Notes: generated by a model from the letters alone, not told the origin. 64,000 bases of DNA from Leucoraja erinacea (GCF_028641065.1 NC_073404.1:22630001-22694000), one strand, 5' to 3'. Positions 2,633-63,279 are shown, numbered from the stretch's first letter. Numbers and translations are program-made.

Positions 2633-2810
2633 TAATAGGAAGGGACTGCATATGCTGGTTTACACCAAAGGTAGACACTAAATGCTGGAGTAATCAGTGG
2701 GTCAGGCAGCATCTATGGGAACAAGGACAGGTGAGTTTTGTGTCCCTATCCTTTTTTTTTCAGAGATGCTGTCTGATCCACTGGGTTACTCCAGCACTTT
2801 GTGTCTATCT
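2633..2810. mobile_element. Penelope-derived terminal repeat, palindromic copy (degraded)
   Basis: tagacactaaatgctggagtaatcagtgggtcaggcagcatct ... agatgctgtctgatccactgggttactccagcactttgtgtcta inverted arms; same family as 35950, 39037 and 62735. Confidence 0.8.
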
Positions 2811-13062: not shown

Positions 13063-13379
13063 TTACACTGTTCAGTAGTGTTCAACCAAATATTTTCTCT
13101 GCAAGGCCACCATTTTCTTTCATTGAGGAAGTTTCCCTCAATCAGCACCTGCAGTCTCTTGTGGTGCCACCATTTTCTCATCATTCATCCACTAAAGGGA
13201 CTTGCTCCAAATATTTGAAGAGGTCTGGCCTCTCGAAGCATTACCAAATACATCCAGACCAATTGTTGTTTCAAAGATACATCCTCGACGTGCATAGAGC
13301 TGGTTAGTAGGGAATTCTCCGTGCTGACAAGTCAAACAGCAACCAAAACAAACCGAAAACCTAGTCACATCTCTCATTG

Positions 13380-13528
13380 TTTAAGAAGGAACTTCAGATG
13401 CTGGAAAATCTGGAGAAACTCAGCGGGTGCAGCAGCATCTATGGAGCGAAGGAAAAAGGCAACGTTTCGGGCCAAAACCCTTCTTCAGTCTCAAGATGGG
13501 TTTCGGCCCGAAACGTTGCATTTTTCAC
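13380..13528 (-). mobile_element. Penelope-derived hammerhead-bearing repeat with partial inverted copy and 11-bp TSD
   Basis: TSD ctctcattgtt at 13371-13381 and 13529-13539; caacgtttcgggccaaaaccc...gggtttcggcccgaaacgttg inverted arms. Confidence 0.8.
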
Positions 13529-14666: not shown

Positions 14667-15232
14667 AAGGCAGACAAAAATGCCGGAGAAACTCGGCGGG
14701 TGAGGCAGCATCTATGAAGCGAAGGAAATAGGCAACGTTTCGGGTCGAAACCCTTCTTCAATGATGTGAGGGGGGGGGGGGGGGGGGGGAAGAAAGGAAG
14801 AGGAGGAGCCAGTGGGCTGAGGGAGAGTAGAGAAGATACGAGGTGCTGCTCCTCCAATTTATGGTGGTCCTCACTCTGGCCATGGAGGAGGCCCAGGACA
14901 GAGAGGTCGGATTCGGAATGGGATGGGGTGTTGAAGTGCTGAGCCACCGGGAGATCAGTTTGGTTATTGCGAACCGAGCGGAGGTGTTGGGCGAAGCGAT
15001 CACCAAGCCTGCACTTGGTCTCACCGAAGTAGAGCTGTTGACATCCAGAGCAGCGGATGCAATAGATGAGGTTGGAGAAGGTGCAGGTGAACCTCTGCCG
15101 CACCTGGAAAGACTGCTTGGGTCCTTGAATGGAGTCATGGGGGGAGGTAAAGCGACTAGTGTAGCATTTCTTGCGGTTGCAAGGGGAAGTGCCCGGAGAG
15201 TGGTTCAGGTGGAAAGGGACGAATTGAGTGAA
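14667..15232 (-). mobile_element. Penelope-like retroelement 3' fragment: GIY-YIG endonuclease plus terminal repeat
   Basis: NLIYCIRC...LYFGET..RLGDRFAQH..PVAQHFN (GIY-YIG), followed by the gaagaagggtttcgacccgaaacgttgcc repeat. Confidence 0.9.
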
Positions 15233-15649
15233 ATGATTTGTGTTTCCATCTGCTATTATCCCAAATAATAATTAATGCTGTAGGAAGAAACATGACTAGA
15301 AACACTGCCTCTGGTATAATAAAGCCTTATTCAATTACAACTTATCATACAAGAGCATCAAAATTATAAAGGAAGCTATCCATAGTTCCAAATATAATGC
15401 AATTTGAGCACCAATTCTGGTCAGCAAAAGGACTAAACAAAAAGGGGCAACGTAAAAGATGACGACAGCTATAAAACCGATCACAGATGTACACGGTTAA
15501 ATTATTTAGAAAAGTGATACGAACGTACAAATTATTAAATTGTACGTGCATGTCACTGTGACTTAATCTGTGTCATATCTTTGAGGAAGAAGGCTGTGCA
15601 TCCAATACCCACTCCACAGACCTAGACACAAAACGTAATGTAGAAGCAA

Positions 15650-35443: not shown

Positions 35444-38400
35444 GTAAGGATTTACTCCCTCAAACTTTTGGAATTATTTTCTACTTGCAATTTTTTCCTT
35501 GTGCGGAATGTGTAACACAATTGGCCATATTTTAATTCAATATTTATTCTCCATTTCTCTTCCTGAAGATCTGATCAGCCTGGCTCATTATTGGATCCAG
35601 TAAAACTACTGTAATTTTGGGATAACTTCTTGGTTCTCTGCATTGAAACAGTTTCACTCTGCCAGCCAGATGCAAGTAAGAATATTAGAAGTTGAAACAG
35701 AAGTAGGCTATTAGGATCTTGGTGCCTGCTCTGTAATTGAATAAGATCATGAATGATTATGTATCTCAGCTTCACGTAGCTGCACTAACCTCCATACCCC
35801 TTAATTTGCTTAATATGTTAACAACCTTTCCATTTCCGTCTTGAATCTACTCAACAACTGAGCCTCGAGAGTCTTCTTGGGTGGTGAATGCAAAGATTCT
35901 CATTTAAATGGTTAATCCCGTAATTTGAAACTGACCCCTAGTTCAGTATAGTTTAAGAAAGAACTGCAGATGCTGGAAAAATCGAAGGTAGACACAAATG
36001 CTGGAGAAACTCAGCGGGCGAGGCAGCATCTATGGAACGAAGGAATAGGTGACGTTTCGGGTCGAGACCCTTCAGTCTGAAGAAGGGTCTCGACCCAAAA
36101 TGTCACCTATTCCTTTGCTCCATAGATGCTGCCTCACCCGCTGAGTTTCTCCAGCATTTTTGTCTACCTAGTTCAGTGTACCTTAGTTTGGGTAAACATC
36201 ATCTACAAGATGTCTGCCCAATCACCAGATAATGCAAACTGGTTTGCTTAACCTCTCTTCATAAAACCAACCTACCATTTCAAGAGACACAAGAGACAGC
36301 AGATGCTGGAATATTGAGTAAAACACAAAGTCCTTGAGGAACTCAGCTGATCAGGGAACATTTGCCGAAGGAATAGACAGGCGACGTTTTGGGTCGGGAC
36401 CCTTATTCACCTGTTCATTCCTTCACCAGATGCTGGCTGTCCTGCTGAGTTCCTCCAGCACTGTGTGTTTTCTATCATTTCAGGAAATGATCTGGGTATG
36501 ATTTCCATTCTGCGCGATATTGAAAAACAGATGCACCGGCCACACTGTCTGCAGACTTACTGCTCAATTAGGAGTGGAATAGTGGAATACTATTCCACTC
36601 CCAACACTGGGATACAGTTCCACTGCTCCCATTGGGGATTTTATATCCTGTAGTTCCACATTAGAATACATGTTCATACCCAGTAACAAGAACTATTGCT
36701 CATGCAGTAATGTAAGATTACAGTATGGCTGCCTCTTCCTGAGGTACTTCCCACCGTTCCACATTGGGGTACTTGTAACCCACGTCCAATAGTCCTTTAG
36801 TACCATACTAGATTACTATCTTAGTGCTGTACCATTCCTTTGTCTGATAGTGAAGTACAGATCTTCTGATCTATCCGGGTTCTGCTTTGGGGTGCAGTTC
36901 CACAGCGTCACAGCGAGTAAAATTCCATTCTAATTGATATTCTTCCACTGTACTTAATTGAATACTGTTCCACTGCACATTACTAGATGCTGTTATACTG
37001 CCACCTACAGTGTACATTTCCGCTGCTCTTTACTGCATACTGTTTCACTGCCCCTTGCTGGGTGCATTTCCACTTCTCTTCATTGGGCACAGTTCCAGTG
37101 CCCATTACTGTGTACATTTCAACTGTCTCTTACTGAGGTTCAGATCAATAGACCCTGACTGGGTACACTTCCAATTTCACATACAAGGCACAATTTCACT
37201 GCCTCTTACTGACTCCATGCTCCTGAATCAAATAAGGAAGTTCCACTACCCCTTACTAGCTTCTGTTACAATGCCTTTTTATGGTTACAGTTCCACTACC
37301 ATTACATGTTATAATACTACTCTCCTCCATTGTGGGGTATTGTTCTGCTTCATCGTGGTTGGAAGTCCATCACCTCTTAATGGCTGCTATGAGTCTGAGC
37401 AAGACCTAAGGTATGAGCCCAGACAGCCTACTGTCTCCGCCTCTTCCTTTCTTCCCCCCCCCCTCCCCACTCCACATCAGTCTGAATAAGGGTCTCAACC
37501 GGAAATGTCGCCTATTCCTTCGCTCCATAGATGCTGCCTCACCTGCTGAGTTTCTCCAGCATTTTTGTCTACCCAGAATTCTTAACATCCGTATAATTGA
37601 ACCCTTGGGAAAGATACCTAGGTCCTCTATTATCAGAGCAATTTGCAGCAGTCGAATCTTTTGTAGGGATTATATGCCCTTTAGATGTAACCTAACTAAT
37701 TTACGTTGATGATTACAGCTATGTTCAGAATAAACTGTGGATTTATTTTTAGCGGAAGCCATGGGCTCACTCCACCTACCTCCTGTTGGCCAATTGGAAT
37801 AATGTTCCCTTCCTGTTTTAGGGTTGTACTTCAGTAACTGAAGGACCAATTCTGGGTCTGTTCTGATCCTTTTCATTTTACCTGAGGTGTATGGTTAAAA
37901 CACACACTATATGAAGTGCCTGGATTGCACCCTATTTCTCCAATTGACCTCAATATCTTTGGTAAAAATCGGACAGGTATTTTGCTCCTGGTCAGTTTTA
38001 GTAATGCCTACTCTGTGAACTAGGGCATCAGAGAAGGGCAGGGTTTAAGCACCAATGATTCTCCTCACAGCAAACATCTCACTCTTGTTCTTTGGCCAAT
38101 GGGTGTCCTCTTGAATGAGACTGTGGAAAGCACCCATCACCTATAGAATCCATTGCAGCAATGATCCATCCTCTCCAGAAATGGCTAGAAAATCAGAGGA
38201 AAGCATTTGGAAAAGCTTCAACCAATACTTTGGTACCAGTTGAGTGAGATTTTGTGAATTGATTTTAACATCAAGCAAACTTTGCAGGGCTAATCCTGAA
38301 GCTGCAATTCCTGTGCATATCTGGTCACGACTACATGGATTGAAGGAGGCATGTCAAATTATTCCATTTTTATGCCAGATGGAATGTAAATGCAGTTTCA

Positions 38401-41400
38401 TTTGAACCCTCTTTTGGATTTTGTACCAGCAATATTTTATGAACCCTCTTTAATCATAAATTAAAAAAAAACTTGAAACTAGTAACTTGGTAAGTGCATA
38501 GGAAGGAACTGCAGATGCTGGTTTACACTGAAGGTAGACACAAAATGCTAGAGTAAAGCATCTGTGGAAAGAAAAATGGTTAATTGGATCCAACCCTTAT
38601 CTGAATTCATAGTGTAGTGAGTCAGCTCTGACCGCACTATTGGCTGTTGGTGCTGTACTGATTAGAATATTCAAGTGTAGTACAAAGGCACTGTACATAG
38701 TCTCTATAGTATTCCTGGGATCTTGTTGATGATATTAGCTCCCTTATGCATTGCATAATAGTTATTTTGTACACTATTCCCCTCAGAATTGGTTGACAAT
38801 GTGCTTCATGTAAGTGTACACCTTGCACCTTACCAATGCAGTAACATGTTGACATTTGTTGGGATTAAAAATTGAAACAGGTCTGTTCATTTTAGAGCAT
38901 GGTGGGATTTTTCACAATGGGGGATCCAAGAACAAAATATAAAAGATTCCTGCAATAATTGCAAGAAAACAATATCTGACAAAGAGCTCTGATATTTATT
39001 GATTTTCAATGTAATAATGTTAGTGTTTACTACAAGGTAGACAAAAATGCTGGAGAAACTCAGTGGGTGAGGCAGCATCTATGGAACAAAGGAAATAGGC
39101 AACGTTTCGGGCTGAAACCCTTCTTCAGACCCGAAACGTTGCCTATTTCCTTCGCTCCATAGATGCTGCCTCACACGCTGAGTTTCTCCAGCATTTTTGT
39201 CTACCTTCGATTTTCCAGCATCTTCAGTTCCTTCTTAAACAAAAGTGTTTACTACAAGTGTCAGAACAACTAAAGTGAAAAGGAAGTAAAAAAATTGTTG
39301 AAAGAATCCCCTAAATCTTTCAGCAGCACAGAGGTTAACAATTTAAGTTATTACTGAATAGATAGGACATGGTTTATGAGTAGAACATCATCAATCTACA
39401 TTTCAGAATATTCCATCTGACCCTCGAAGAGTTCACAGAGCAGAGAGGTCAAAGGTCCCACAAATAATTACAAGGGAACATTACTGAGGAATTTTAATTG
39501 CTCCTCATTTAGCACAGTTGGCCATGTAAGCTAAAGATTCAAGAGATTTTTTGCATCAAATACTTTGTTTATTTAGTTTATTGACTGGAACAGGCCAATG
39601 CTTTGGAAGAAGTCCAGCAGAACAGTTCATGTGATCTGATATAAAGGCCAGTAAATAAAAATGCTTAGGAAAGAACTGCAGATGCTGGTTTAAATTGAAG
39701 GTAGACACAAAATGCTGGAGTAACTCAGCTGGGACAGGCAGCATCTCTGGAAAGAAGGAATGGGTGACGTTTCGGGTTGAGACCCTTCTTCAGACTAAAA
39801 TAAATGATATAAATCAAAATAAATAAATACATTCGGAGCAAATAAAAATGCTCCTCTTGTTTGAAGCTATTTCTACCAGAGATAGCCTAAACATTGCCAG
39901 GAAGATGCCATTAGCATTGGAGAATAGAAAAGCCACAAAATTATGTGAGGGTTTCCAAGAAGTACAGTAACACGTATTAAATTAACACGAGCACAACTGG
40001 AACTTAAGGAACTGTTTCTCTAAAACAAAGAAGTTTGTTTCCTATTCTTTATTCATCCTTTCACTTCTAGAATATTTACTGTTTTGAACATTCACCTCAA
40101 TCACTAAGTTTTGCCAGCTGTTGCAAACTGCCCATAGCAAGCACGATTACCTGCCCTTCGAAAAATTGAATACAATCTGATTTGTTGTCTATATATCTTG
40201 TTTATATTTTATTTAGTCCATGTTCAAGACCAACCGTGGAACAGTGGGTGGGTACTTCTTGGCCGGGAGGAACATGAAATGGTACACTGTAAGCGACTGC
40301 TATTTTATTGATTTAATTTATTTGATAACAGCTTATTAAATTATAGTAACTGCATTGTCAGAAATCTGACATCTTAAGGAAGCTAAAATTACCTTTGTGT
40401 TCATTCATGAAGATGCCACTGTTAAGCAATAGGTCGCAGTTGACAGACAAGTCACAGTCTAAATACATGAACATATAAATGGTTTAGATTGAATCAAAGT
40501 CTATAAGCAGCAGGAATTTGACTTTATGCTTTATGATTGCAAGCAGCAACAGGTAGCTTTTAAGCTGATTTGGACAAACCAGAAATTTCTCAATTATATT
40601 GGATTAATTTGGCCTGTTACGTAATCGCTGCATGCTCAAAATAGCCTCAACGTGTATAGAGCACAATACTTTTGTTTTGACAGCTAATTGTCCATTCTTG
40701 CATTAGAAATAAGTTTTAAGGACTTTTTCAGTGGCAAAAAAATCTCACTTTCTCAATTGCATTTCCAGGTTGGAGCCTCGCTTTTTGCCAGTAACATTGG
40801 AAGTGGCCACTTTGTTGGTTTGGCAGGCACAGGGGCAGCAAATGGGTTGGCAGTCGGTGGCTTTGAGTGGAATGTAAGTACAATGAGACAATTCAAAGAC
40901 ATTTAACATTTTAGGAATCTTGACTGGATCACTGGGATTCCATTTTCCTAAAGATGGGCCTCTTCATATATCCTGGTCAACTTGGCACAAGTTCTGTCCT
41001 GATGCTGGATCCCGTCCGCACTCAGATACTGACTTGAGGTTGATGAAGGGTCTCAACCTAAAAAGTTGCCCAGGGGAATTACTTACCCTGATGCCACCTG
41101 ACCTATTGAGTTCCTCCAGCACTTTATGCTTTGTTCAAGATTCCAGCATCTGCAGTTTTTTGTGTCTCCATTTTACTGCTCCATTGCAAATCTCCTCAAA
41201 CTATGCCTACTCTGAAGAAGTTCCAGGTGCGGCAGAGGTTCACCTGCACCTCCTCCAACCTCATCTATTGCATCCGTTGCTCTAGGTGTCAGCTGCTCTA
41301 CATCGGTAAGACCAAGCATAGGCTTCACCCAACACCTCCGCTCGGTTCGCAATAACCAACCTGATCTCCTGGTGGCTCAGTACTTCAACTCCCCCTCCCA

Positions 41401-44400
41401 TTCCGAATCCGACCTTTCTGTCCTGGGCCTCCTCCATGGCCAGAGTGAGGTCCACCGTAAATTGGAGGAGTAGCACCTCATATTTTGCTTGGATAGTTTA
41501 CACCCCAGCGGTATGAACAATGACTTCTCCAATTTTAGGTAGTCCCTGCTTTCTCCTTCTTTACCATCCCCTTCCCAGCTCTCCCACAGCCCACTGTCTC
41601 TGCCTCTTCCTTTCTTCTTCCTGCCACCTCCGCCTCCACATCAGTCTGAAGAAGAGTTTCGACCCGAAACGTGGCCTATTTCCTTCACTCCATAGAACCT
41701 GCCTCACCCGCTGAGTTTTTCCAGCACTTTGCCTACCTTCAATTTTCCAACATTTTCCTTCTTAAACAACTGAATAAGTTCTCCTCCTCTCTCTGACAGG
41801 GGTTCTGTGAGACCCCCTCACACTGCTCCTCCACTGTGATTCCCACTGCTCTCCCGCTGTTCAGGTCTGAAGAAGGAACACAACCAAAAACGTTCCCTTT
41901 CAAACCCTTTCCCAGATACTCCTGAACTCTTCAACACTTTAGGCCTTGCTCAAGATTACAGCACCTGCAGTTTCTAGTGTATTTATTATCCTACTCTCAT
42001 CAATTATCTTTGCATCTTCTATATTCATTTATTTAGACCCTGAGGAATCAGATGCATACATCCCATGTCAATTGGATATGGCGCCTTTGATGAAACTTGT
42101 TTAAAGTTTGTCACCACATAGCTGCTTCTTTAGACTTTAGACTTTACTTTAGACTCTGGAGGTACAGAGCAGCTCGCCGTGCCGACCAGCAATCACCCCG
42201 TACACTAGCACTATCCTACACACTGATGACAATTTTCAATTTCACCAAAGACATTCCTTCCCCATCTGCTTGAACCCATTTTTCCCCTAAAAGCATCACA
42301 TTCCTGAGTTTTTCTCCCCATTTTCAAGTGACAATCAATTCATACATGGTATCACCTAATCATAATTCTTCTGGTTTGTTCACCAAAGTCATACGCAGGG
42401 ACACTAGTTCTGGTTTACTTGGTGCAAGATCGAAGATTTACGGATTCTTGGAACACAACAGGAACCTCGTTGCTGTGCCCCAGTATAGATTCATATTGAC
42501 ATAATCCTCCCTCGTGTTCACACCAACTTTAGTGATGTCTTGTACTCTGTCCCCTTCTCATAACTCTCTTGGTCGACAAAATGTGGAATGATCTGTCATA
42601 TTTAACATTGGGATTTGTTTCCCACAGGCCTTGTTTATTGTGCTACTTCTGGGTTGGCTTTTTGTTCCAGTGTACCTGACAGCTGGGGTAAGTATGAGAC
42701 TATTTCAAATGAACTGTTTCAGCAGTTGTTTCAGACAGCTATTAGACGATACATGGAAATATGCAAATTACAAATGACAGGTATAGGAATATTATATACA
42801 ATATGTAGTATGTACTATATACAAAAATATATACCAAGATGCAAAAATCAAATATCAGAGGGCATAGATTTAAAGTGAGAGGGGCAAAGTTTAAAGGAGA
42901 TGAGCGGAGAAACTTACACAGAGGGTGGTGAGTGCCAGGAACATGCTGCCAGGGTTGGTGGTTGGTGGTTAAGGCGGAGGAATATGAATTATGCGCAGGT
43001 AGATAAGAGCTGGTCTTGGCATCATGTTCGGCATATACACTCTGGGCCAAAGGGCCTGATCTTGTGCTGTACTGTTCTCTTTCTATGTTCTAATCTTTCT
43101 CCAGAGGATTGATTCAAACACAATCTCCAAAATGGAAGGACTCTATACCCAACACATTGTGTCACCTAGGGTTCTGAAGCTGCATTCAATGCTGGATTTC
43201 ATAAGTGAAAAGATAGTGGGGTTAATATGGATTTTAATTCTTGTGAGTGAAAATAATTGAGCAGCATTTCATATAGATTTTCTCTTTGTAATTCGCAGCA
43301 ATTTCAAAATATTGATCTCATCCCTTGTACATATCATCATGTAGTCAAAAATAAAGGTGACATTTGGTTCATTTGAATGTTTCTGGGAAATTATTTTCCT
43401 GTGTAATCAAATACTGGCTTAGGTTTTTAACTTTGAATTTGTTGATTCAGTAACTAGGCAAAAATGCTTGGACATTATTTGATAATTTCACCTGTGCCTT
43501 TTCCCAGGTCATCACCATGCCACAGTACCTAATGAAAAGGTTCGGAGGAAACCGAATTAGACTGTACCTCTCCCTCATTTCTCTTTTCCTTTACATATTT
43601 ACCAAGATTTCGGTAAGTATCTCATCATGTGCACATGACATTCAGGCAGGTCTCCGATGTGACACCTGCTCATAAAAGTTGTTCTTATGGGGAAATGTAT
43701 TCTTTAAGAATGCCCGATAGTCAAACGCTGTTTATGAAAGGATTTCCAGGATACCAGAAGGGTTAAGGTTCCCATTGGGAAGACTCCTGTTAATTGATGT
43801 TTATTTACTGATGGTGATATGTTGTGTTTTCGCTGACAGGTGGACATGTTCTCTGGAGCAGTTTTCATCCAACAAGCTTTGGGGTGGAACATCTATGTTG
43901 CAGTAATTGCATTGCTGATTATTACTTGTATCTACACTGTCTCAGGTAGGCACTAAAGATCAGACAGAGGAATATTGAGTTTACATGAAGCATTCTGTAG
44001 GCTGCCACTCCAGAAAATGGACAATACAAATTGTGATTAGTTAAGATGTCAGAGGGAGGATTGGAGGGAAGATTGGGGAAGATTAGCTACTAGGGCCCTG
44101 TGAGGTTTGGTAGTTCAGGGAGAATGGACTATGATTGGGCGATAGCCGTTGCGGGTTTGTCAGTAATAGATGATCAGTCGGGATGAGAAGGGGAATGGTC
44201 AGGAAGAGGAATTGATCATTGGAAGGGAAGTCGGTAGTTGGTGGGGTATTGGCACTTGGTTGTTTGTGGTACTGGGAGGGTCTAGATTGAGAAAGCAGAT
44301 TGATGGAGGTATTGGTGAAGTAATATTGACAGATCACTAGTCTGGATTGGATTAGGTCAGTAGGTTTGGTGGGGCTGGGCAAGGGTGACGCTTGGTGAAC

Positions 44401-47400: not shown

Positions 47401-50400
47401 TGTTGCACGTAGCATGGATAACAGACAGATTCTAATGATGTTGTTTCAAGAGACAGACCAATGCTGAGCATAATCAGCAAAGGCATCGGAACATTGAACT
47501 ACATTGTCTGAACTGTGGGATATCAAGTAAAGTAGAAGTAATCAAACTTTATGGTGCTATGGTAACATCTTCGATTTTATGTTCAATTCTTGTTGCCAAG
47601 TAACAAGACATTTAAGTATTGGAGACATGAGTGACAGGAAATATGAATGTGATCTCTGGAGAATGTCGGGATTCTTCAACCTATTAAGTAATCTGACAAG
47701 TAATTTTACAGAGATTAATTCATACAGTTGATATTAGAAATAATACAAATACATTATATATTTAAATTTAGTAGTACTGGATCAAGGTCACAAAAAGTGA
47801 TAATTGTGGAATAAACTTCCAGCTGAAGATGGAATACAGAAGGAAGTAGGGCTCTAGGATCTTTATTAATGGTTTAATTAAATTGATTTGATGAGTAAGG
47901 GTGTTAGGGGTTATGGGGAGAAGGCAGGAGAATGAGGTTGAGAGCAAAAGATAGATCAGCCATGATTAAATGGCTGAGTAGACATGATGGGCCGAATGAC
48001 CTAATTCTGCTCCTAAAACCTATGAACGTGTCAGAGGCATTCGTCTCCTGTAATTACTTTGCAAATTTCCCATTAATGCATTGATTTCTTTTTTGCTTCT
48101 CACAGCTTTCCATGAAGTTGGGGGCTATCAGGCATTGTTTGCCAAGTACAAGGATGCCGTGCCAATTCTTCATGATTCAATAGATCCTTCCCGCTATAAC
48201 ATCTCTGACAAGTGCTATCTTCCTCGTGCTGACGCATTCAATCTTCTGCGAGATGCAGTCAGTGGCGACTTACCCTGGCCAGGATTGATCTTTGGTATAA
48301 GCATCATTGGAGTTTGGTTCTGGTGCAGTGATCAGGTAAGTTGCTGAGTAGCCAATATGACTTTGATCCCCAGGCCTCAACAAATTATTTCCTTTTAGAA
48401 ACTTCTCCACAAGCATCCGTATACATCTGCCCTTTCACCTGTGGATTTAAATAATTGGTGTGTTAAGTACACTGTTCTTCCCTAAAATAATGGAATCAAT
48501 CTTTCAATTCTTCACTGACAATATATTATTAGGCTTCAGGCAATAACAGACTTGTCCCTATGATACAATCTGATGCATGCCCAAGAAGTGAAGCATCAAA
48601 TTATATCTAAGAGGAGATCGGATGTGAGTAGGAGGGGGAATAACGAAGATGATGGAAGATATAATCAATGAGTTTTCATGAGATAATGGACCCGAATGAC
48701 AAACAGAATAGTGCTATTAATGGTGAGACAGGATGGCATAGGGTGCATATTAACGTATGAATGAGAGGAGTGGAAAATCGAGTATAACTGCTAGAATGGT
48801 GAGGTACACACTGGAGAAACAACAGATTACAGATGCTGGAAATCAGAAGTAAAGTTAAATCAAACTGAGTACAGATGACTCGTCGTGACCCAAAATGTTG
48901 ATTATCCATTTCCCTTCACAGATGCTGCAACCTGCTGAGTTCCTCTAGCAGATTGTTTTTGCATTAATTTTAGACTACTTCAGATATTTCTCCCATTTTT
49001 TTTTTTAATATGCATCTCTTCCAGGTCATCATCCAACGATGCTTAGCTGCTAAGAACCTGACACACGTGAAGGCTGGTTGTGTTCTATGTGGTTACATAA
49101 AGTTGTTGCCCATGTATCTGATGGTCTTGCCGGGCATGATCAGTCGAATTCTATACCCAGGTAAGGTTTCTTTATCAAATGGCTATTTATTCCATGCATG
49201 AACATTTCTGTGAGGAAACATGAAAACTAAAAATGTTACAGATTATTGCTGAGGCCTTCCCTCAGGTTAGCACTCAGCTGGATTAGTGTGGTGTAGATTG
49301 GTTCAAGAACCTGATACTGACCGGAGATGAGGGTGGAAGTTGAAGGGCGTTAATTAGCCAGCGAGGTGAACGGTAATAAAATGGGGGTAATTGCTCAGAG
49401 TGCTCTATCTGGTCGAGCAATATTTATGTGACAAAGAGTTTTATTCTTTCCAGCATGTCAATCAATAGTTGATTAAAATTTGGGATAATACTAAATGGTT
49501 TCATTATAAGGAGTTAATTTGGGACATTTTTTGAAACAGCAATGCAGTTCATTCTAAAGAGCTTCCATTTTGTCCCGTAGATGAGGTTGCATGTGTTGTG
49601 CCAGAGGAATGTGAGAAGATATGTGGCACTCCAGTTGGTTGCTCGAACATTGCCTACCCAAAGATGGTGGTTGCCCTGATGCCCAAGGGTAAACAATCTG
49701 TTTCACTGTAACCAAGCTACAAATAGCTCAAATTGTATTCCCCCCCTCTCCCTGAAGCTTCTCTGTGTTCAATTTAGAATTTATCTCACCAATTCCTCTG
49801 GCTGTTGCTGCTCTCTTTTCACCTGCATGGATGCTGACTGCCCTCTGGTATATTACCTGTACCTTGCGTAAGGGAAATTAATTCATTGAAAGAGAAATCA
49901 TAATGGATCACGATTCCATATCAATCAATTGCAAAACATACAGCACTTTCCCACAGTGGTCTATGAGCATTGATCATAACCTTACCACAGCCTCATTGGA
50001 GCCAATTGCAACCTTAGTAAGGTAGTTATCCCTCCCTGCCACTCACTGCATGATAGAGTACTGCTCAATCGTAAATAAGTGTGCTCAACTTCTCATTTCA
50101 ACTCAGAGATCTCCTTCAGTTCTTAAGGGACTCTTTACATCACTCCACTCCTCCCTTAATACTTCAGTATTAAAATCCAAATTTGGTGCTATGATTTTAA
50201 TATTTCTTTATTTCTATTATCTTCACCTACTTTTTACATTTTAATCCTGTGCCTTGCCTTTAATTTGGTGTAGAATGCCACTGTTTTTGGAGACTAATCA
50301 TCTTAGCTCTACAATGTGAGTTGCTCAGGTTAGAGTCCTAGGCTCACCCATCTCCAGCTGACTTGCTGATGGTCATAGATAGACACAAAATGCTGGAGTA

Positions 50401-53400
50401 ACTCAATGGGACAGGCATCATCTCTGGAACTTTTTACATTTTAATCCTGAGCCTTGTCTTTAATTTGAGAGAGAATGCCACTGTGGTTGGAAACTAATCA
50501 TCTTATCTCCAGAGATCTCTTTGATCCAGAGATGCTGCCTGTCCTGCTGAGTTACTCCAGCATTTTGTGTCTGTCTTCAGTGTAAATCTGCACCTGCAAT
50601 TCCTTCCAACACCACTGATGGCCATCATTAGATCATAATAATAATAATATATTTTATTGTCATTGCACACAAGTGCAACGAGATTTGGTATGCAGCTTCC
50701 ATCCGATGTCATAACTTAAATAACTAATACAATTTAGATTTAGATACCCCGAGAACATGGTTTGTAAAAAGAACATTAAAACAGTAAAACAGTCAAAACA
50801 GTGGATCAACAAACTTTTATTCAGAGGTGAAGCTAAGCAGGCATGGACTAATGCATCATACGGTTATAAAAGTGGCCACCAGTTTAAGTATAAATGGGTC
50901 AAAACTGCAATGTTAGTGGTACAACTCTACTGGAGTTCTCTACTCTACTGGTGAAAACAAGTAAATTACTTTTATACCTGAATTTAATCATCAATTATCT
51001 ATTTGTAGCAATTTGATAGAACTGAATGGTGTGCCAGATCATTTCAAAGAGCATTACTGTGGGTCTGGAATCAATGGCAGGCCAGGGAAAGGTAAAAATC
51101 CTCTAGAGGGATATTAATAAATCAAGTAGACTTTTACAACAATCCAGTAACCTCATGAATCAAGATACTAGGTTTTTATTCTCAGCATACTTCATTCACT
51201 GAATTTAAATTGCCTAGTTTACGAGATGACCTTTGTACTCATGTCTCTGTGTTAACAGTCCAGGTCTCTGCGTTGCTAGTTCAGTAGCATAATTTGGATG
51301 CAAATGTTCCCAAGCAGTCTATCCTAATCTTCGCACTGTTCCCAGTATGTCTACATTTTACATCTACACTTTCCCCATTGTGTCCTTTTTATATATACCC
51401 ATAGTTTTCAGGTGGTACTTTATTCATCCTCAATGTGTAAGAAGGAACTGCAGATGCTGGTTTAAACTGAAGATAGACACAAAAATTTGGAGTAATTCTG
51501 TGGGTCAAACAGCATCTCTGGAGAATATGAATAGGTGGCGTTTCAGGTCTGAAGAAAGGTCTCAATCCGCAACTTCACCTATTCTCCAGAGATGCTGTTC
51601 GACCCGCTGAGTTACTCCAGCTTTTTGTGTTCATCCATACTGAGTTGTTCTGGTGGCAGATTGTTGCTATTGTTCAGTATGTCTCCTTGATGCATGATTA
51701 ATTTAAATTTGCTTGGCTCCCCTGTACAGGGCTTCGTGGTTTAATGCTTGCAGTTATGCTAGCAGCTCTCATGAGTTCACTGGCATCCATCTTCAATAGC
51801 AGCAGCACTCTCTTCACCATGGACATCTGGGCAAGAATCCGGAAGGAAGCCAGCAACAAGGAACTAATGATTGTTGGCAGGTGAATGGTCATTAACAGAA
51901 TCAAAGAAATGTTTCGCAAGAGAATTACAGACGAATGAAGACATTTTGGCACATCACAGCTCATCAATCTTGAAGATATTAACCCCTGCAACATTTTGAT
52001 TGTTAGTTAAATAATTCCAGGAATTTTAGTTCACTGCAGCCGGAAATAATTACACATGTTGCTCATTGTTCGAAAGATTGAGTGAATTATCTTCTTCTAA
52101 TCTTACTGGCTGTACATGGCTACATTTTGACCGCAGTGCCATTACAATCACAAAGTCATATGCAACCTCTCTTTCTACATTATCTTATTCTTAAATATCA
52201 TGGCTAGGATTTATTTCAGGAAACAGTGCAAAAGAGGAATCAAGGGTACAAATTGATGTTTGTCTATTGCTTTACAATTGTTTACTTATGTTTGGTTACT
52301 TCATATATGAAGTTTGTATGTGTATAATAGTTGTATGTATATATATGTCTGTAGGTATTATGGAAAATTGCCTGGGGTAGTATTATTATTATTAATTAAT
52401 TGATTTTTAAATATGGTAGAAGTGTTGGGGAAAAGGGGTGAGATTTAATAAGTTATTCTTCTTCTCACTCCTTTTCGAGCTTGTACAGACAGAGTTGGAC
52501 ATTGGAAATTTGCTTTTTGTTCTTTTCATTGCTTGTAAATATTGATTGTAATGTCCAATTGTTTGATAATTTCGATTTTGTTACTATTAATGTCTTTAAT
52601 GTCTTTACTTGTTCGGAATAAATAAAATAAATAAATAAATAAATAAATAAATGTACATATGCAAAATAGAACTAATCATAGCAACAGGTATGAATCGCAA
52701 ATTTCCTTGTTCTGTTCCTCAGGATCTGGATTCTCTGTATTGTCACGATCAGCATTGCATGGATACCTGTGGTCCAGGCAGCACAAAGTGGACAACTCTT
52801 CGACTATATCCAGTCTGTCACCAGTTACTTGGCACCACCCATTGGCGCAGTTGTCCTGCTAGGTGTCTTTGTGAAAAGGATCAATGAGCCAGTAAGTAGC
52901 TATTCTGATATAAGAGTGACTGATGGAAATGTATAATATCCTATTCATCTCCAGATTGATCCCTTATCATTCCCAGAACAAATACAACATGTTAGATACA
53001 ATGTGAAGCACCTGCCATACTTCCCTTTGAGACACACATTAGCCAGGTGCACAAAGTGTTGGGCATGGATCAACCGGGTTCAATATTTTAAAGAAAATGT
53101 GGTATAGTTCTAATGAAGGGGTCTCAAATTTGGAACATAAACCAAATACCCTGAGTTACACACCTCGTATCGACCTGGCTGTTGATGGATATATCAGGTC
53201 TGAGAGTGGAGCTTATCTTTGTGATGGGCAGGTAAAGATGAATGCTGATGACCAGAAGTTCTGCCCTTCACAACAGAATTGGAACTGATTTGAACAAGTA
53301 TGAACGGAGAATAAGCTACCTGCCATAGAGAGCGCCCATAGTCTGAAAGACTGTTGTCTTTTCATTTATATTTTTTCTGTCAGCTGTGCTTCTGAGCAAG

Positions 53401-56400
53401 ATTCTGAAAGCTGCCTTTCTCTAGTTTCAGGCAAGGAAATCATCTTCTCCCCTTCCTTCTATTAAGGAACTGTAATTATGCAATTTAAATTGCCGTGGAT
53501 ATTTTCATAATTTATCAATAAAATGAAGTCAGAAATAGAGCAGAAGTCTGTGGAAATTAAAGGAGTCAGAATAAGTACACAAGAAAAAAGTAGTAACTAA
53601 ACCTGGGAGGTACTCTGTCACTGGGAGTACAGACAATGCAACTACTTCTTGAATCTACCCTGGTGACAGGTTACTTTCACTGTATAACCTCCTCATTCCC
53701 AGTATCTGCTCCTCCTCCATGACCGGCATTTGACTGAATAAGTGAAACAGTGGCTGACGATACAAACCGTTGCCAAACAGTGGACGAACCAGACTCTTGA
53801 TTTTTTTTCCTTCTCCTGTGTTAATATTTTTCAGAGGAATTGGAACCAATGTTCAATTTTCTCTCAATGTTCATCTTGCACTTCCCCAGTGATGTTCTTC
53901 CTGGATTCCTGAGAGTCATGGAGTAAGAGCCACAATCCTACAAATTAGGGCGGCACACAGGGCCAGAGGCCAGGGTGTGACTGTGTGAAGTTTGCACGTT
54001 CTCCCTGTGAGCACGTGGGTGTCCTCTGGCTGCTCCGGTTTCCTCCCACTTCCCAAAGATGTGCGGGTGTGTAGGTTAATTGGCCTCTGTAAATTCTCCC
54101 TCGTGTGTAGGCAGTGGATGATAAAGTGGGATGACGTAGAACTGGTGTGAATGAGTAAATTCACTTCACTGCACCTTATGGTGCATGTGACAAATACATT
54201 TGAAATTGATTTCATTTGATTGATAGTCGGCATGGACTTAGTGAGTTGAAGAGCCTATTTCTATGCTGTATTTTTCAATCAATCATCAATCAAGTTACTC
54301 CTCGTTGTTTTGACTTATTCCAATGGGTGCTGGAGAGACATATAACCTTACTTTGATTCATTGAGATACACAATACTCATTTTCCACCCTGCTTTGCTTA
54401 AAAGGATAACTGTCTTAAATTTTAAAGGATCCTTAGATGATTAAAAGATCCTCAGATAATTACTTTTTCTGATAATTATACTAATGGAGTGGTTATTTCT
54501 TTAGTTCTTTCACTAAACTACACTTTAAGACTTTCATGGTTTCCTTCGCCTGAAGTTAGATTAAAACTGAGTAATGAATCAGTCTTTCCATGCTTAATAT
54601 CTGATTTTCCATAAGTAAAAACCCTCTCAGAGGTGATAGAGGATTATGATTAACATGCAGGCTTGTCCCAAAAATTACTTACTGCCATTGGTTTATAGGA
54701 TTGTTAGTAACTTTAATAATAATTGCTATAGATGAGCATACTTGCTGCTAGTTGTGATTTTACTCTGCAGGGTGCCTTCTGGGGTTTGATCGGAGGTCTG
54801 GCCATGGGTCTCTGTCGCATGATAGCCGAGTTTGTCTATGGCACGGGCAGCTGCATCTTCCCATCCTCTTGCCCCTTTATCTTCTGTGGCATCCACTACC
54901 TCCATTTTGCCATCATTTTGTTCAGCTGCACATGTATCCTGGTCCTCATCATCTCCTTCTGCACTCCAAAGATCGAAGAAAAACATGTGAGTTTTTGTTG
55001 ATTATTAATTGGCTTCTATTTCACAACGAAGAAAGGCATAATATTTATCGCAATGTGCTTGTCTCATTAACTATTTTTATCTTTCTATTTCCGATAGCAG
55101 CAGGAGTAACCCATTTGCGTCATCAATCAATATAATTCTGATGGACAGAAAATGCTGAAGAAACTCAGCAGGAGATGCAGCATCTATGGAGAGAAGGAAT
55201 AGGCGATGTTTCAGGTCGAGACCCTTCTTCAGTCTGAGTGCACCTTGGTGTACAAGTTCATCTGAAGAAGGGTCTCAACCCGAAACGTCGCCTATTCCTT
55301 CTTTCCAAAGATGCTGCCTCACCCGCTGAGTTTCTCCAGCATTTTTTTGTCTACATTCAATTGTTCCACCATCTGCAGTTATTTCTTAAATATAATTCTG
55401 GTCTTCTTCTACCTCACCACACTTCCTCACATTCCTTAATACCTTAATTCCTTAGTAGCTTCACTGTCAGAATTTTTAAGTCTTAAAAATGTGGTAACTG
55501 AGCACCTGAAATAGAGAGTAGTGATATTGTGATTTATTATTGTCATGTGCAACAAGATACCGTGGGCTATCCAGTTAAATAATACACAAATGCAACAGGT
55601 AAGTGCAGAAAGTAAAAGGAAACTGAGTGCCGCATATAGTGTTACAGCTACAGAGGAAGTGCAGATGAAAAAGATTGCAAGATTGGGTGATCGATAATAG
55701 AGGATTTTTTGTGCGACTGGTTGGCTGTGGCTAGAGAAGTTTAATTGGGATCAGTTTTGGCGCCCTTGCAGTTTGTACATGAATGGTTTGGATGTCGATG
55801 AAGAAGGCATGATCAGGAAGTTTGCAGTTGCCACTTTTGGTGAAGTTGTTGATATCGTGGAGAGTTGTCATAGGATATAGAATGATGCCGATGAAATTGG
55901 CTGAGAAATGGCAGATGGAGTTTAATCCAGATAATTGTGGTGTACAAGTCCATCTGTAACCAGTTCTCAGTCCATGTTGATGTCCCATGAGCCCTAATTA
56001 TGTGCCTCTTGTGTGGCATTTTCTCTTGTGAATTTTATCAATCAGATGTGCTGCATCTACTTCTCTTTATCTGTTGATCTGCGATTGGCTCAGTTTAAAT
56101 TTCTCATGGTAAAAGATACTGATAGAAGAAAGGAGAAAAAAGAGAATGAGAGAGAGTTTGAGTTTTTGTTTAATTTATTGTCACATGTACTAAGGTACAG
56201 GGAAAGCTTTTGTTGCGTGTTAACCTGTTTGCGGAAAGACAATATACATGATTACAATTGAGCCGTCTACAGTGTACAGATGCACGATCAAGGGAATAAC
56301 ATGAATAATATTTAGTGCAAGATAAAGCCAGTAGAGTCCGATCAAAGATAGTCCAAGGGTCTCCAATTAAGTAAGTAGTAGTTCAGGACTGCTCTTTAGT

Positions 56401-59915: not shown

Positions 59916-60229
59916 TAAAATATTATTTTAAAACTGCTTTATCTTAATTCAATTTATTGTTGCCTAATAGGTTTTAACAAGCCTTTTGTTTTTGTTAATC
60001 TATCTGGTTAGCTTTTTGGATAGATTGGATAGTTGGCCTAATACCTTCATTATCCCCTTTCAAAGGTTGTTAATCTTGTGAAGATTAACAATCGCACATG
60101 CTATCATGATCTACAGCTACTCACAATACATACCTTTACTTGTGGAGGATGGATAAAAACATAGAAGTACAAAAAGGAAAAATCCAAACATTGAAGGTAC
60201 AAGAAGCAGATGCTGGTTTACTTTGTACC

Positions 60230-60512
60230 TCTTGACTTAAAGCTATGCCCTCTCTAGGATCCGATATTTCCATCAAGGGGAAAAGATACTGACTGTCTAC
60301 CCTATCTCCGCCTCTCATAATATTATATACTTCTAGCAGTTCTCCTCTCAACCACCGAGAAAACAACCCATGTCTATCCAACCTCCCCCTGTAGCAGAAA
60401 CTCTCCAAGCAGCATTCTGGCAAACCTCCTCTGCATCCTCTCCAACGCCTCTACATGCTTCCTGTAATGGGGCAAGCAGAACTGCGCACAATACTCCAAA
60501 TGCAGCCTAAGC
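60230..60512 (-). mobile_element. CR1 LINE fragment
   Basis: LRGELLEVYNIMRGGDRVDSQYLFP. Confidence 0.75.
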
Positions 60513-61199
60513 AATAGAGCTTTGGCCTTGACATATTGGGTTTGAGCCTTGACCTTTGTTGTCCTTCCATCTATGTTCAGATCAACTGTTAGACTATGTA
60601 GCTAACACTGAATAAGGCATCTAAAATAAATGACAACATAAGAACCCTTTTCATAAAACAGTATTTCCAAACTACTTTAGTTGCTCTTTTGCTGAATATC
60701 AGTTCATATAATTTCTTGGCTCACTGATCGAAATGGTTTTCCAGATTTAACGTTATCAAAATCGGTCATGTCATCTAATCTGCTTTAACTCTGGGACACT
60801 GCCATGTCCTCATTAATGTAACGTCACTGGGACCGGGTACAAGTTAAGATACGGAAAACAGAATGTTGGAATGAAGTAAATGGGAAGCAATGGTCACCAG
60901 GGGAGTAGGGAGCAGAATCTTTTTATTTCATAGCGCTTTAAATGTGTGATTCTTGTTTGTTTTTTTAGTTTGTAAAGAAAATATATTGCTAATTTTATTT
61001 TTAATATTATTTTCATTTTGAATACATTAAGTAGGAGTTCATGAATGTGTGAAAGACCGAGTTGGTTGGCAGTCTCATAACTTCCAATGCCTTTCTGGGG
61101 GTGCAGTGCAGGCAGCTATTTATGCTGGGAGAGAGCTTACACTGAGCTGGGGTTCAGTGAGCTGGCGTTCAGCCTCTCGGAGGAAAACTGTGTCCAAAC

Positions 61200-61247
61200 C
61201 AAAGATTCTAGAGGAGATCCTCTAGAGTAGATCCTCTAGTATATTTG
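61200..61247. mobile_element. 48-bp hairpin insertion (CAAAGATTCTAGAGGA...TCCTCTAGTATATTTG) with 8-bp TSD GTCCAAAC
   Basis: TSD at 61192-61199 and 61248-61255. Confidence 0.7.
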
Positions 61248-61282
61248 GTCCAAACCACAGTGGAAGGAACATCAAGATTAAA

Positions 61283-61465
61283 TTACACAAAATGCTGGAG
61301 GAACTCAGCGGGCCAGGCTGGAGGATATGGACAGGTGACGCATCCATGGGTAGGTGAAGACACGTCACCTATCCACATTCTCCAGAGATGCTGCCGGGCC
61401 CACTGAGTTACCCCAGCACTTTGTGTCCTTTTATGTAAAGCAGTATCTGCAGTTTCTTATTTCTA
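61283..61465. mobile_element. Penelope-derived palindromic repeat (older)
   Basis: acacaaaatgctggaggaactcagcgggcc / gggcccactgagttaccccagcactttgtgt arms. Confidence 0.7.
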
Positions 61466-61507
61466 CAGCATGATCCGAGGAATGTGGGGTAGTGATCTGT
61501 CACTGTA

Positions 61508-62247
61508 TAGGGTGATTTCACTAAAGGTCACTGGAGCGTAGATCCGCACCCACGTGACCAAAATTCTCAAGTGGAGGACACTCGAGGGTTCGGTACATGT
61601 TAGTGGATGGGAAAAAACACATTTTCCCACCCGTTAAAAACATAGAAAACGTCGAGGTTGTGAGCTGCAATTTACTGTGCCAGTCGGGGTGACCGTGAGG
61701 CACAGCTACCTAGATTTACAGGGGAAAAAAAAGATAGCAAGTAAGGTAAATTCAAGAGGGAACTGAAGGTGCCAAACCGGTGATAATGAACAGCCGACAT
61801 TTGCCGTGGATATTTACAGGTCCAAAATATCAGGAATTATCACGTTTGCTCGCTGAATTTATCAAAAGTAAGTTAATAATGCCTTACTTTTGATGAAATT
61901 CAGCGAGCAAACGTGATAATTCCCGATATTTTGGACCTGTAAATATCCACGGCAAATGTCGGCTGTTCATTTCCGGCGGTTTGGCACCTTCAGTTCCCTC
62001 TTGAATTTACCTTACTTGCTATCTTTTTTTTCCCTGTAAATCTAGGTAGCTGTGCCTCACGGTCACCCCGACTGGCACAGTAAATTGCAGCTCACAACCT
62101 CGCCGTTTTCTATGTTTTTAACGGGTGGGAAAATGCGTTTTTTCCCATCCACTAACATGTACCGAACCCTCGAGTGTCCTCCACTTGAGAATTTTGGTCA
62201 CGTGGGTGCGGATATACGCTCCAGTGACCTTTAGTGAAATCACCCTA
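61508..62247. mobile_element. 740-bp foldback (palindromic) Tc1/mariner-type MITE, TA TSD
   Basis: ta|tagggtgatttcactaaaggtcactggagcg ... cgctccagtgacctttagtgaaatcacccta|ta; near-identical arms of about 365 bp with a 10-nt loop at 61873-61882. Confidence 0.92.
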
Positions 62248-62539
62248 TACTGCATAAAATACAAACATCCTGTCGACCTGGTTAACAAAAATCGGGTTTG
62301 ATAATATTGTCAGTGCATTGTATTTTTCAACTCTATAGACTAGAGTTTTGCATTTTTCCCAGTTTTTAAGAAGGCTGCATTACCGAAATTGTTTGAAAGT
62401 GATTGATATTGAATGGTGGGGGCCCCACTACACGATGAAATGTGAGGCGATGACGTTGCCCTTTTAATTAACCATTTGAGACCGGGCGCTAGTCTCTGGG
62501 GGAAGTCTTCCATTAATTGCAGACTGCAGCGCTTTGCAC

Positions 62540-62569
62540 CAAAGATCCTGCTCTGCTATAGGATCTTTG
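62540..62569. mobile_element. 30-bp hairpin insertion (CAAAGATCCT...AGGATCTTTG) with perfect 8-bp TSD CTTTGCAC
   Basis: TSD at 62532-62539 and 62570-62577. Confidence 0.78.
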
Positions 62570-62734
62570 CTTTGCACCGGTCGCTCTGCTGGAGCGGCGA
62601 TCCTCGGACCGCCGGAGGAGGCAATCGCAGCACATTTGGATCCTGCAATTGGAGGTGAATGTCAGGCGGGCGGCGTGACGCAGCGCATCCCGGGGGTAAG
62701 TGGCGTTGAAGAGGCCCGACACGTAGCGCTCAGT

Positions 62735-62940
62735 TACACAGAAAAGCTGGAGAAACTCAGCGGGTGCAGCAGCATCTATGGAGCGAAGGAAATAGGCAAC
62801 GTTTCGGGCCGAAACCCTTGGTTTCGGCCCGAAACGTTGCCTATTTCCTTCGCTCCATAGATGCTGCTGCACCCGCTGAGTTTCTCCAGCTTTTCTGTGT
62901 AACCTTCGATTCTCCAGCATCTGCAGTTCCCTCTTAAACA
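62735..62940. mobile_element. Very young Penelope-derived palindrome with 14-bp TSD
   Basis: TSD acgtagcgctcagt at 62721-62734 and 62941-62954; arms of about 80 bp that look identical by eye, CpGs intact. Confidence 0.92.
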
Positions 62941-63279
62941 ACGTAGCGCTCAGTGCCGGCTGAATGAAATCAGGATGTAAACTGATACAATGTATTCCCC
63001 TCCCCGGGTACTGGCTCCGGGCGGCACCACCGCCACGACTGGCGGCTGCCCGCAGCCCTAGGTCTAATGCATGTCTGGCTGCCCCGTGTCCTTGTTTGCA
63101 CCGAGTGACTGACTGTTTCTAAAACCCCTTGAGTTTCTCCAACACTTGTGTCTACCTTCGAGTTTCCAGCATCTGCAGTTCCTTCTGAAACATTGTAGCG
63201 AGTTCCCCAACTCCCTACCCCAGGGGAACGGAGGTGCTCAAATCTCACCCTTCCGACCCAATGATTATTGCTTCCGACT

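What the first reader, a model, noticed from the sequence alone, without database searches (positions are those of the whole stretch)
35937..62954. Protein-free palindromic Penelope mini-elements inserting with 11-15 bp TSDs
Seen: 150-250 bp insertions made only of two inverted copies of the Penelope terminal repeat, one arm usually about 30-40 nt longer and ending ...cagcatctgcagttccttcttaaac. TSDs are ctctcattgtt (13371), cctagttcagt (35937), agtgtttactacaag (39022), aatataattctg (55129) and acgtagcgctcagt (62721). The arm junction differs in every copy and usually falls within or beside the hammerhead motif. Established: PLEs often show an inverted partial repeat at the 5' end. Inference: each palindrome forms de novo at insertion (twin priming or template switch on a short, possibly ribozyme-processed RNA), giving a retrozyme-like system that seeds hairpins throughout introns.
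Basis: partly seen in the sequence, partly recalled or inferred. Interest (0 to 1): 0.7.

Follow-up and report, generated by a model that had tools for sequence, protein, structure and literature searches.

The report
Stub palindromes of a Penelope retrotransposon
These 170-270 base mirror-image insertions in a cartilaginous-fish genome are the cut-down ends of a Penelope-type jumping gene, each likely assembled at its landing site from two short copies; the structure is known, but such dense examples could test how these elements insert.

Summary
The five palindromes and their target-site duplications (TSDs) are real. All five TSDs sit at the stated coordinates; 1 of 3000 random site pairs reached 11 bp or more. 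Five older palindromes also occur in the window.

The arms are the hammerhead-bearing 3' end of a Neptune-like Penelope element (PLE). Two window copies are still joined to its GIY-YIG endonuclease, one with the same tail and a 12-bp TSD. Inverted truncated copy, 30-40 bp one-sided tail and TSD are published PLE hallmarks.

De novo formation is supported: sister arms share subfamily variants (5 of 5), junctions vary within one subfamily, and one junction holds DNA copied from its own flank. The retrozyme reading is not: there are no tandem units, and all 10 arms of the five named copies run 13-33 nt past the predicted cut site. Junctions recur rather than always differing, with 3-4 nt microhomology in 5 of 7.

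All 10 pairs have exactly one tail, suggesting coordinated priming from both target strands. No genome was held, so there is no genome-wide test. The scan reported the same kind of element before in a shark genome (e1-7858806).

The parts
13371..13539 (.). Palindromic PLE stub: TSD 13371-13381/13529-13539; tailed arm 13378-13488 (-); internally deleted tailless arm 13489-13530 (+); joint -28/-29 with 4-nt microhomology
35937..36177 (.). Palindromic PLE stub in intron 1 of slc5a2-like gene: TSD 35937-35947/36167-36177; tailed arm 35951-36073 (-); tailless arm 36074-36169 (+); joint -23/-31 (or -28/-29 with a later 3-nt loss)
39022..39258 (.). Palindromic PLE stub in intron 1: TSD 39022-39036/39244-39258; tailless arm 39034-39130 (-); tailed arm 39128-39241 (+); joint -30/-13 with 3-nt microhomology
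55129..55400 (.). Palindromic PLE stub, intronic: TSD 55129-55140/55389-55400; tailless arm 55141-55232 (-); 23-nt spacer 55238-55260 between two TCTGA; tailed arm 55261-55390 (+)
62721..62954 (.). Youngest palindromic stub (arms 100% complementary over 84 nt): TSD 62721-62734/62941-62954; tailless arm 62733-62819 (-); tailed arm 62820-62940 (+); blunt joint -22/-19
51433..51635 (.). Older palindromic stub, one tail; same joint (-13/-30) as the 39022 copy; best flanking repeat only 7 bp
36272..36482 (.). Older palindromic stub, one tail, 11-bp TSD with 1 mismatch; tailless arm starts at -2..+1 (compatible with the cut site)
50366..50625 (.). Older palindromic stub, one tail, 11-bp TSD with 1 mismatch; spacer 50429-50505 is an 88% copy of the neighbouring flank 50229-50305
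2634..2812 (.). Older palindromic stub, one tail, no clear TSD; joint -13/about +1
61283..61468 (.). Older palindromic stub, one tail, about 20-nt spacer, no clear TSD; arms start about -4/-5
41212..41781 (+). 5'-truncated parent-type copy: GIY-YIG endonuclease end (frameshifted), pyrimidine tract, hammerhead arm, tail, 12-bp TSD with 1 mismatch (41212/41770)
14660..15271 (-). 5'-truncated parent-type copy: Cys linker plus GIY-YIG endonuclease (similarity 14843-15196) joined to a tailless hammerhead arm
37424..37574 (+). Solo tailless arm with upstream pyrimidine tract
39661..39794 (-). Solo tailed arm starting at about -30, intact minimal hammerhead core

Best explanation
These are extremely 5'-truncated insertions of a Neptune-like Penelope retrotransposon, each likely built at the landing site when both nicked target strands prime short cDNAs that are then joined head to head. 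SHOWN HERE: the arm is the 3' end of a GIY-YIG-coding PLE; one TSD brackets both arms; sister arms share subfamily variants; exactly one arm is tailed; joints vary and recur. FROM THE LITERATURE (a Poseidon PLE, PMC11167929): the enzyme cuts and extends both strands and starts reverse transcription at two internal RNA sites that bound the tail. INFERRED STEPS: (1) the enzyme makes a staggered cut of about 7-15 nt; (2) one strand primes at the tail-end site (about +100 from the hammerhead cut site) and the other at the tail-start site (about +63 to +65) on uncleaved RNA; (3) both cDNAs stop within about 130 nt, often at -27 to -33, which may be the 5' end of the transcript, so that the stubs would be run-off copies of the first terminal repeat of an ordinary mRNA; (4) their free 3' ends are joined through 2-4 nt microhomology, bluntly, or with filler that can be copied from nearby host DNA; (5) fill-in makes the TSD. 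The products are dead stubs; in introns they would form long RNA hairpins as a by-product.
For: (1) Parent element: the arm adjoins GIY-YIG coding sequence at 14660-15271 and 41221-41769. Pfam GIY-YIG scores E 0.0095 for the fragment and 2.4e-5 for relative P0008, which is 43% identical over 127 aa. The closest relatives are skate and ray proteins, 58-79% identical. The fragment has a C-x4-C-x2-C linker upstream of the CxxCxxC-containing core, which Craig 2021 gives for Neptune/Nematis and as absent in Penelope/Poseidon. (2) The ORF-linked copy 41221 has the same tail and a 12-bp TSD. (3) Sister arms match at diagnostic sites in 5 of 5 named copies across 4 haplotypes; random pairing gives 3/945. 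(4) 13371 and 62721 belong to one young subfamily (2 differences) but have different joints. (5) The 50377 joint holds a 77-nt, 88% copy of its own flank. (6) One tail in 10 of 10 pairs; at most 0.001 if each arm chose its start independently. (7) Microhomology of 3 nt or more at 5 of 7 direct joints against a null of 7.4%, p 4e-5. (8) Solo tailless copies end at the same place as the short arms, as expected of a true second start site. (9) In reads laid at 80% likeness, bulk RNA depth over the ORF end is about half that over the arm (about 1500 against 2700-3000 per direction), and contig depth is similar over both, so ORF-linked copies are common.
Against: (1) The sample is 10 pairs from one window; no genome was held and four collection scans found no further copies. 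(2) The microhomology count depends on the reference: 5 of 7 with the majority G at -13, but 2 of 7 (p 0.07) with the private A of copy 39662. Three pairs with spacers were left out of this count. (3) Recurrent joints could also come from later hairpin-tip deletions. (4) By raw distance over the shared core, the sister was the nearest arm for only 5 of 18 arms; the concordance rests on four or five diagnostic sites that I picked by eye. (5) Gene conversion between arms would also make sisters alike. (6) Finished inserts cannot separate two primed cDNAs from fold-back of one. (7) The biochemistry is from a Poseidon, not a Neptune, element. (8) Three of the five older pairs lack a clear TSD. (9) A transcript start at about -30 is untested, and one search listed no place where many molecules begin or end.
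Confidence: 0.62

Rival explanations
1. Fold-back or self-priming: one cDNA primed at the tail end folds on itself through a short palindrome or microhomology and copies itself back to make the second arm (related to the self-priming proposed by Arkhipova 2013).
For: Sister arms share variants. Microhomology at joints, and the CAG-T-CTG mini-palindrome at -32..-26, could seed a fold-back. One-tail asymmetry follows if copying stops early. PMC3846280 reads junction palindromes as self-priming (passages).
Against: The short arm ends at about +63 to +65, the same place as solo tailless copies 14660 and 37424, which suggests an RT start site rather than a chance stop. In 4 of the 5 named copies the tailless arm reaches as far or further 5' than the tailed arm, including sequence the tailed arm lacks (for example -30 against -13 in 39022), which simple self-copying cannot supply without later deletion. 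The 62721 joint is blunt.
Confidence: 0.2
2. A separate non-autonomous short RNA (about -33 to +100), SINE- or retrozyme-like and possibly circularised after hammerhead cleavage, is mobilised in trans and supplies the stubs.
For: 8 of 20 paired arms and 3 solo copies start at -27 to -33, and no paired arm passes -33. RNA depth rises about tenfold at 41631-41651. A ligated circle would also let RT read through the cut site. A 2026 preprint derives animal retrozymes from PLE terminal repeats.
Against: No tandem hammerhead units in the window, and tandem units define non-LTR retrozymes. Only 2 of 20 arms are compatible with a start at the cut site. The depth step is confounded, because the loose ends there read as another subfamily's pyrimidine tract (agreement 0.46-0.66). 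The arms share haplotypes with ORF-linked copies.
Confidence: 0.12
3. One or a few master palindromes were amplified as a MITE-like unit.
For: Breakpoints recur between copies.
Against: Recurrent joints occur across different subfamilies, while copies of one subfamily have different joints. One joint contains local flank DNA. TSD length varies.
Confidence: 0.03
4. Two independent insertions landed next to each other, or the palindromes are assembly artefacts.
For: The family is dense, with more than 20 fragments in 64 kb.
Against: A single TSD brackets both arms in 5 of 5 named copies; sister arms are concordant; arms have diverged with age (0-24%), unlike a fold-back assembly artefact; an opposite-strand joint is seen in raw RNA reads (211 reads, 69 starts).
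Confidence: 0.03

Closest known systems
EN+ Penelope-like element insertions with inverted 5'-truncated pLTR and tail (PMC3846280 passages; PMC8557442 passages)
   Same: Head-to-head inverted truncated copy, 30-40 bp tail on one end only, TSD of similar size (8-10 bp in Adineta), microhomology joints, hammerhead in the terminal repeat.
   Different: Here both copies are cut down to 45-130 nt with no ORF between them, at 10 pairs per 64 kb; the passages I saw draw ORF-containing arrangements.
Dual minimal hammerheads on opposite strands 100-700 bp apart, ascribed to truncated PLEs, in Schistosoma (PMC4209133, parts 1-2 of 4 read)
   Same: Same CUGANGA-N-stem II-GAAA-palindromic CG-UH core, opposite-strand pairs, thousands of solo motifs in vertebrates.
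   Different: Here the cores abut or overlap at the centre; TSDs, tails and joints were not described in the parts read.
Poseidon PAc of Anolis, in vitro (PMC11167929, parts 1-2 of 4 read)
   Same: Two RT start sites bounding the tail; both strands cut and extended; ribozyme cleavage not needed.
   Different: Different clade; the text read does not analyse inverted products.
Non-LTR retrozymes (PMC7229834 passages; bioRxiv 10.64898/2026.07.22.740005 parts 1-2 of 5)
   Same: Short, non-coding, type I hammerhead, PLE-related.
   Different: Retrozymes are head-to-tail tandem units of 150-450 bp processed to circles; these are head-to-head pairs, and 2 of the 5 named copies have no intact core.
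L1 twin priming
   Same: Two target strands prime; inverted product, TSD, microhomology at the joint.
   Different: In L1 the two segments cover adjacent parts of one RNA; here both arms cover the same 75-95 nt, which needs strand displacement or two RNAs.

Membership tests
EN+ Penelope-like element | GIY-YIG endonuclease with internal cysteines, at the C-terminal end of the ORF next to the terminal repeat | tested here: met
   Linked copies at 14660-15271 and 41221-41769; Pfam GIY-YIG E 0.0095, below the curated cut-off for this decayed fragment; relative P0008 passes the cut-off.
EN+ Penelope-like element | PLE-type reverse transcriptase upstream of the endonuclease | tested here: inconclusive
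   No RT core in the window. A 60-aa piece at 26644-26823 matches the region upstream of the endonuclease in P0003. No tree was built.
EN+ Penelope-like element | Minimal type I hammerhead in the terminal repeat | tested here: met
   5 descriptor hits in the window, all in this repeat, against 0-1 in 20 shuffles. Rfam gave 0 hits. Cleavage was not tested.
EN+ Penelope-like element | Inverted truncated copy, one-sided 30-40 bp tail, variable-length TSD | tested here: met
   10 of 10 pairs have one tail; exact TSD in 5 of 10, one-mismatch 11-bp TSD in 2 more.
EN+ Penelope-like element | Full-length or partial tandem pLTR-ORF-pLTR copy | not testable with these tools
   No genome held; none in the window.
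Neptune clade | CX2-5CxxC linker motif upstream of the endonuclease | tested here: met
   C-x4-C-x2-C in the window fragment and in P0001/P0003; motif per PMC8557442. The motif is shared with Nematis and Naiad.
Neptune clade | Placement in the RT phylogeny | not tested
   No RT sequence of this family was obtained.
Non-LTR retrozyme | Head-to-tail tandem units, each with a type I hammerhead | tested here: not met
   No such array among 29 tandem-repeat rows; window only.
Non-LTR retrozyme | Self-cleaved monomeric or circular RNA as intermediate | tested here: inconclusive
   16 of 20 arms cross the cut site, which excludes a linear cleaved template but not a ligated circle. No small-RNA or RNase R data were available.
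MITE or single master palindrome | Uniform centre and fixed TSD length | tested here: not met
   At least 6 joint classes and 11-15 bp TSDs.

The most novel reading that the evidence does not exclude
Every stub records one RNA primed twice by a dimeric Neptune enzyme, one active site at each of the two start sites flanking the tail, with both cDNAs running off the transcript's 5' end about 30 nt upstream of the hammerhead cut site. The strict one-tail rule would then be the genomic footprint of an asymmetric, overlapping form of twin priming distinct from L1's. At this window's density the family would offer a very large natural data set that resolves how PLE inverted repeats arise.
Probability: 0.3. 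Interest if true: 0.6.

Novelty: new member of a known kind. Interest (0 to 1): 0.33.

Why it matters
The anatomy is textbook PLE, so a specialist would not be surprised that it exists. What remains open, according to PMC8557442, is how PLE tandem and inverted structures form. Short, TSD-bounded, datable stubs at 10 per 64 kb make that question testable by a genome census of tail asymmetry, joint position, microhomology and filler origin. A side effect worth checking is a high load of intronic double-stranded RNA in skates and rays. Repeat annotators could also mistake these stubs for MITEs or SINEs.

Tried and rejected
(1) Whole genome: none held.
(2) Collection scans for more copies found nothing: metagenomes, viral contigs, prokaryote genomes.
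(3) Rfam at gathering threshold: 0 hits. PDB sequence search with the endonuclease frame: 0 hits. The first Pfam scan of the whole 209-aa frame gave 0 families; the trimmed fragment gave a weak GIY-YIG hit.
(4) Single arms do not fold better than shuffles (z 0.16-0.71), so a monomeric ribozyme fold is not shown.
(5) I considered an intron ending at the CAG just before the hammerhead core (41540-41644). No such splice joint was among the 15 of 148 joints displayed, so this is unsupported; 133 joints were not shown.
(6) The read lay did not give a genome-wide joint catalogue. Only one opposite-strand joint was displayed (41560/41669), and no place with many molecule ends was listed.
(7) A-to-I editing cannot be judged: reads came from many loci at 80% likeness, and C>T, T>C and G>A changes dominate.
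(8) No run holding the stretch was on record as RNA (no RNA holder listed). The two RNA runs laid came in by species label.
(9) Nearest-neighbour distance did not pair most sisters.
(10) Paper searches listed no paper on ORF-less PLE palindromes in elasmobranchs or on twin priming in PLEs. Repbase, Dfam, subscription papers and supplements (none opened; bioRxiv supplements are closed) may already describe this family.
Full report
OBSERVATION. The five insertions are present as described. A search for the longest direct repeat at the element borders returned exact TSDs of 11, 11, 15, 12 and 14 bp at 13371/13529, 35937/36167, 39022/39244, 55129/55389 and 62721/62941. One of 3000 random site pairs reached 11 bp or more. 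Arms are 89-100% complementary. A BLAST of the arm over the window adds five older inverted pairs (2634, 36272, 50366, 51433, 61283) and more than a dozen solo fragments. Two of the older pairs keep an 11-bp TSD with one mismatch; three have none that is clear. Up to 4 nt of a TSD overlap an element end, so true staggers are about 7-15 nt. Three of the five named copies lie in introns of an slc5a2-like gene; two lie outside its coding span.

WHAT IT IS. The arm is the 3' end of a Penelope-like element. At 14660-15271 (-) and 41221-41769 (+) it directly follows a frame with a C-x4-C-x2-C linker and a cysteine-bearing GIY-YIG domain. The fragment scores weakly with Pfam GIY-YIG (E 0.0095) and is 43% identical to P0008, which passes the cut-off. 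Its best relatives are skate and ray proteins, so the host is likely a batoid fish. The linker motif points to Neptune or Nematis rather than Penelope/Poseidon (PMC8557442 passages); no RT tree was made. Copy 41221 has the same tail and a 12-bp TSD with one mismatch, so ORF-bearing and ORF-less copies share ends and insertion signature. The sense strand carries a minimal hammerhead, CTGAAGA-A-stem II-GAAA-CG-TH: 5 descriptor hits in the window, all in this repeat, against 0-1 in shuffles. It is the type described in PMC4209133. Rfam has no hit and single arms fold no better than shuffles.

ANATOMY. Positions are relative to the predicted cut site. Tailless arms end at about +63 to +65 and tailed arms at about +100. 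Each of the 10 pairs has exactly one tail; the chance is at most 0.001 if arms chose their start independently. Arm starts (tailed/tailless) are: 13371 -28/-29; 35937 -23/-31; 39022 -13/-30; 55129 -29/-28 with a spacer; 62721 -19/-22; 51434 -13/-30; 36296 -27/about +1; 2636 -13/about +1; 61283 -5/-4 with a spacer; 50377 about +14/+14 with a spacer (read from the alignment by eye). So 16 of 20 arms cross the cut site, 2 are compatible with starting at it, and 2 start 3' of it. A linear ribozyme-cleaved template is excluded for most arms; a ligated circle is not. Joints recur across subfamilies. Of the 7 direct joints (the 3 with spacers left out), 5 have 3-4 nt microhomology against a 7.4% null (p 4e-5). 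With the private base of copy 39662 at -13 in the reference the count falls to 2 of 7 (p 0.07); the arms concerned carry the majority base.

DE NOVO OR MASTER. Sister arms agree at diagnostic sites in 5 of 5 named copies over four haplotypes (3/945 by random pairing; sites chosen by eye). By raw distance the sister was nearest for only 5 of 18 arms, so that test is weak. Copies 13371 and 62721 differ at 2 sites yet have different joints. The 50377 joint contains a 77-nt, 88% copy of DNA 60-140 nt upstream of its own TSD, which an amplified master would not carry. Together these support assembly at the insertion site.

OUTSIDE DATA. No genome was held and four collection scans were empty. I laid 4 of the 24 listed runs on 41190-41800 at 80% likeness. 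Tens of thousands of contigs and reads fit. Bulk RNA depth was about 1500 per direction on the endonuclease end and 2700-3000 on the arm, and contig depth was similar on both; this is not a copy number. A depth step near -33 is confounded by another subfamily's upstream tract. Fifteen of 148 joints were displayed: one was an opposite-strand joint in RNA, and none matched my suspected intron. Editing could not be judged.

MECHANISM. PMC11167929 (parts 1-2 of 4) shows for a Poseidon PLE that both target strands are cut and extended, that RT starts at two internal sites bounding the tail, and that hammerhead cleavage is dispensable. Applied here by inference: each target strand primes at one of the two sites, both cDNAs stop within about 130 nt, and the ends are joined by microhomology, bluntly or with filler. 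The pile-up of starts at -27 to -33 (8 of 20 paired arms, 3 solos, none beyond -33 among pairs) may mark the transcript's 5' end, which would make the stubs run-off copies of the first terminal repeat; this is untested. I put 0.62 on this scheme, 0.2 on fold-back, 0.12 on a separate short or circular RNA, and 0.03 each on a master palindrome and on coincidence or artefact. That the stubs are truncated PLE insertions I put at about 0.92.

COMPARISON WITH WHAT IS KNOWN. An inverted truncated copy, a 30-40 bp one-sided tail and a short TSD are described in PMC3846280 and PMC8557442 (passages) and in a curation guide (PMC8969392 passages). Opposite-strand hammerhead pairs from truncated PLEs are noted in PMC4209133. 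Non-LTR retrozymes are defined by head-to-tail units (PMC7229834 passages; bioRxiv 10.64898/2026.07.22.740005 parts 1-2 of 5 and passages), and none is in the window. L1 twin priming is recalled, not read. Eight paper searches listed nothing on ORF-less PLE palindromes in elasmobranchs. Repeat databases and supplements were not seen and may hold this family. An earlier scan report (e1-7858806) reached a similar reading in a shark genome; it is an unchecked AI note and not independent support.

VERDICT. A real feature and a new member of a known kind. Interest 0.33, mainly as material for testing how PLE inverted repeats form.

Noticed in passing
window 61505-62250: A 745-bp near-perfect palindrome (arm segments of 227 and 139 nt, 96-98% complementary) with no match to the PLE arm; likely a young non-autonomous DNA transposon or foldback element.
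   Followed up: no
window 12708-13065: Element with 42-nt terminal inverted repeats at 95%, MITE-like.
   Followed up: no
window 50429-50505: The spacer between PLE arms is an 88% copy of host DNA 60-140 nt upstream of the insertion site (50229-50305), in the same orientation: a locally templated filler.
   Followed up: yes
window 55238-55260: 23-nt spacer between two TCTGA at the joint; a 12-mer of it also occurs at 55938, about 540 nt past the right TSD, possibly local templating or chance.
   Followed up: partly
window 41540-41644: A GT donor-like site after the endonuclease stop, a 100-nt pyrimidine tract and a CAG one base before the hammerhead core resemble the intron end described for Drosophila Penelope; no splice joint was among those displayed.
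   Followed up: partly
window 41560/41669 (run X24): An abundant opposite-strand joint in bulk RNA (211 reads, 69 starts) shows a transcribed inverted copy from this family whose one arm reaches about 85 nt upstream of the hammerhead core.
   Followed up: no
window 35321-59912 (+) and 17341-17853 (-): Host genes: 15 coding exon matches of a sodium/glucose cotransporter 2-like gene and an exon of a WD40 protein.
   Followed up: partly
window 10232-11946 (-) and 18837-19286 (+): LINE-type RT fragment (Pfam RVT_1) and a frame that looks like a Tc1-type transposase start (family recalled, not tested).
   Followed up: no
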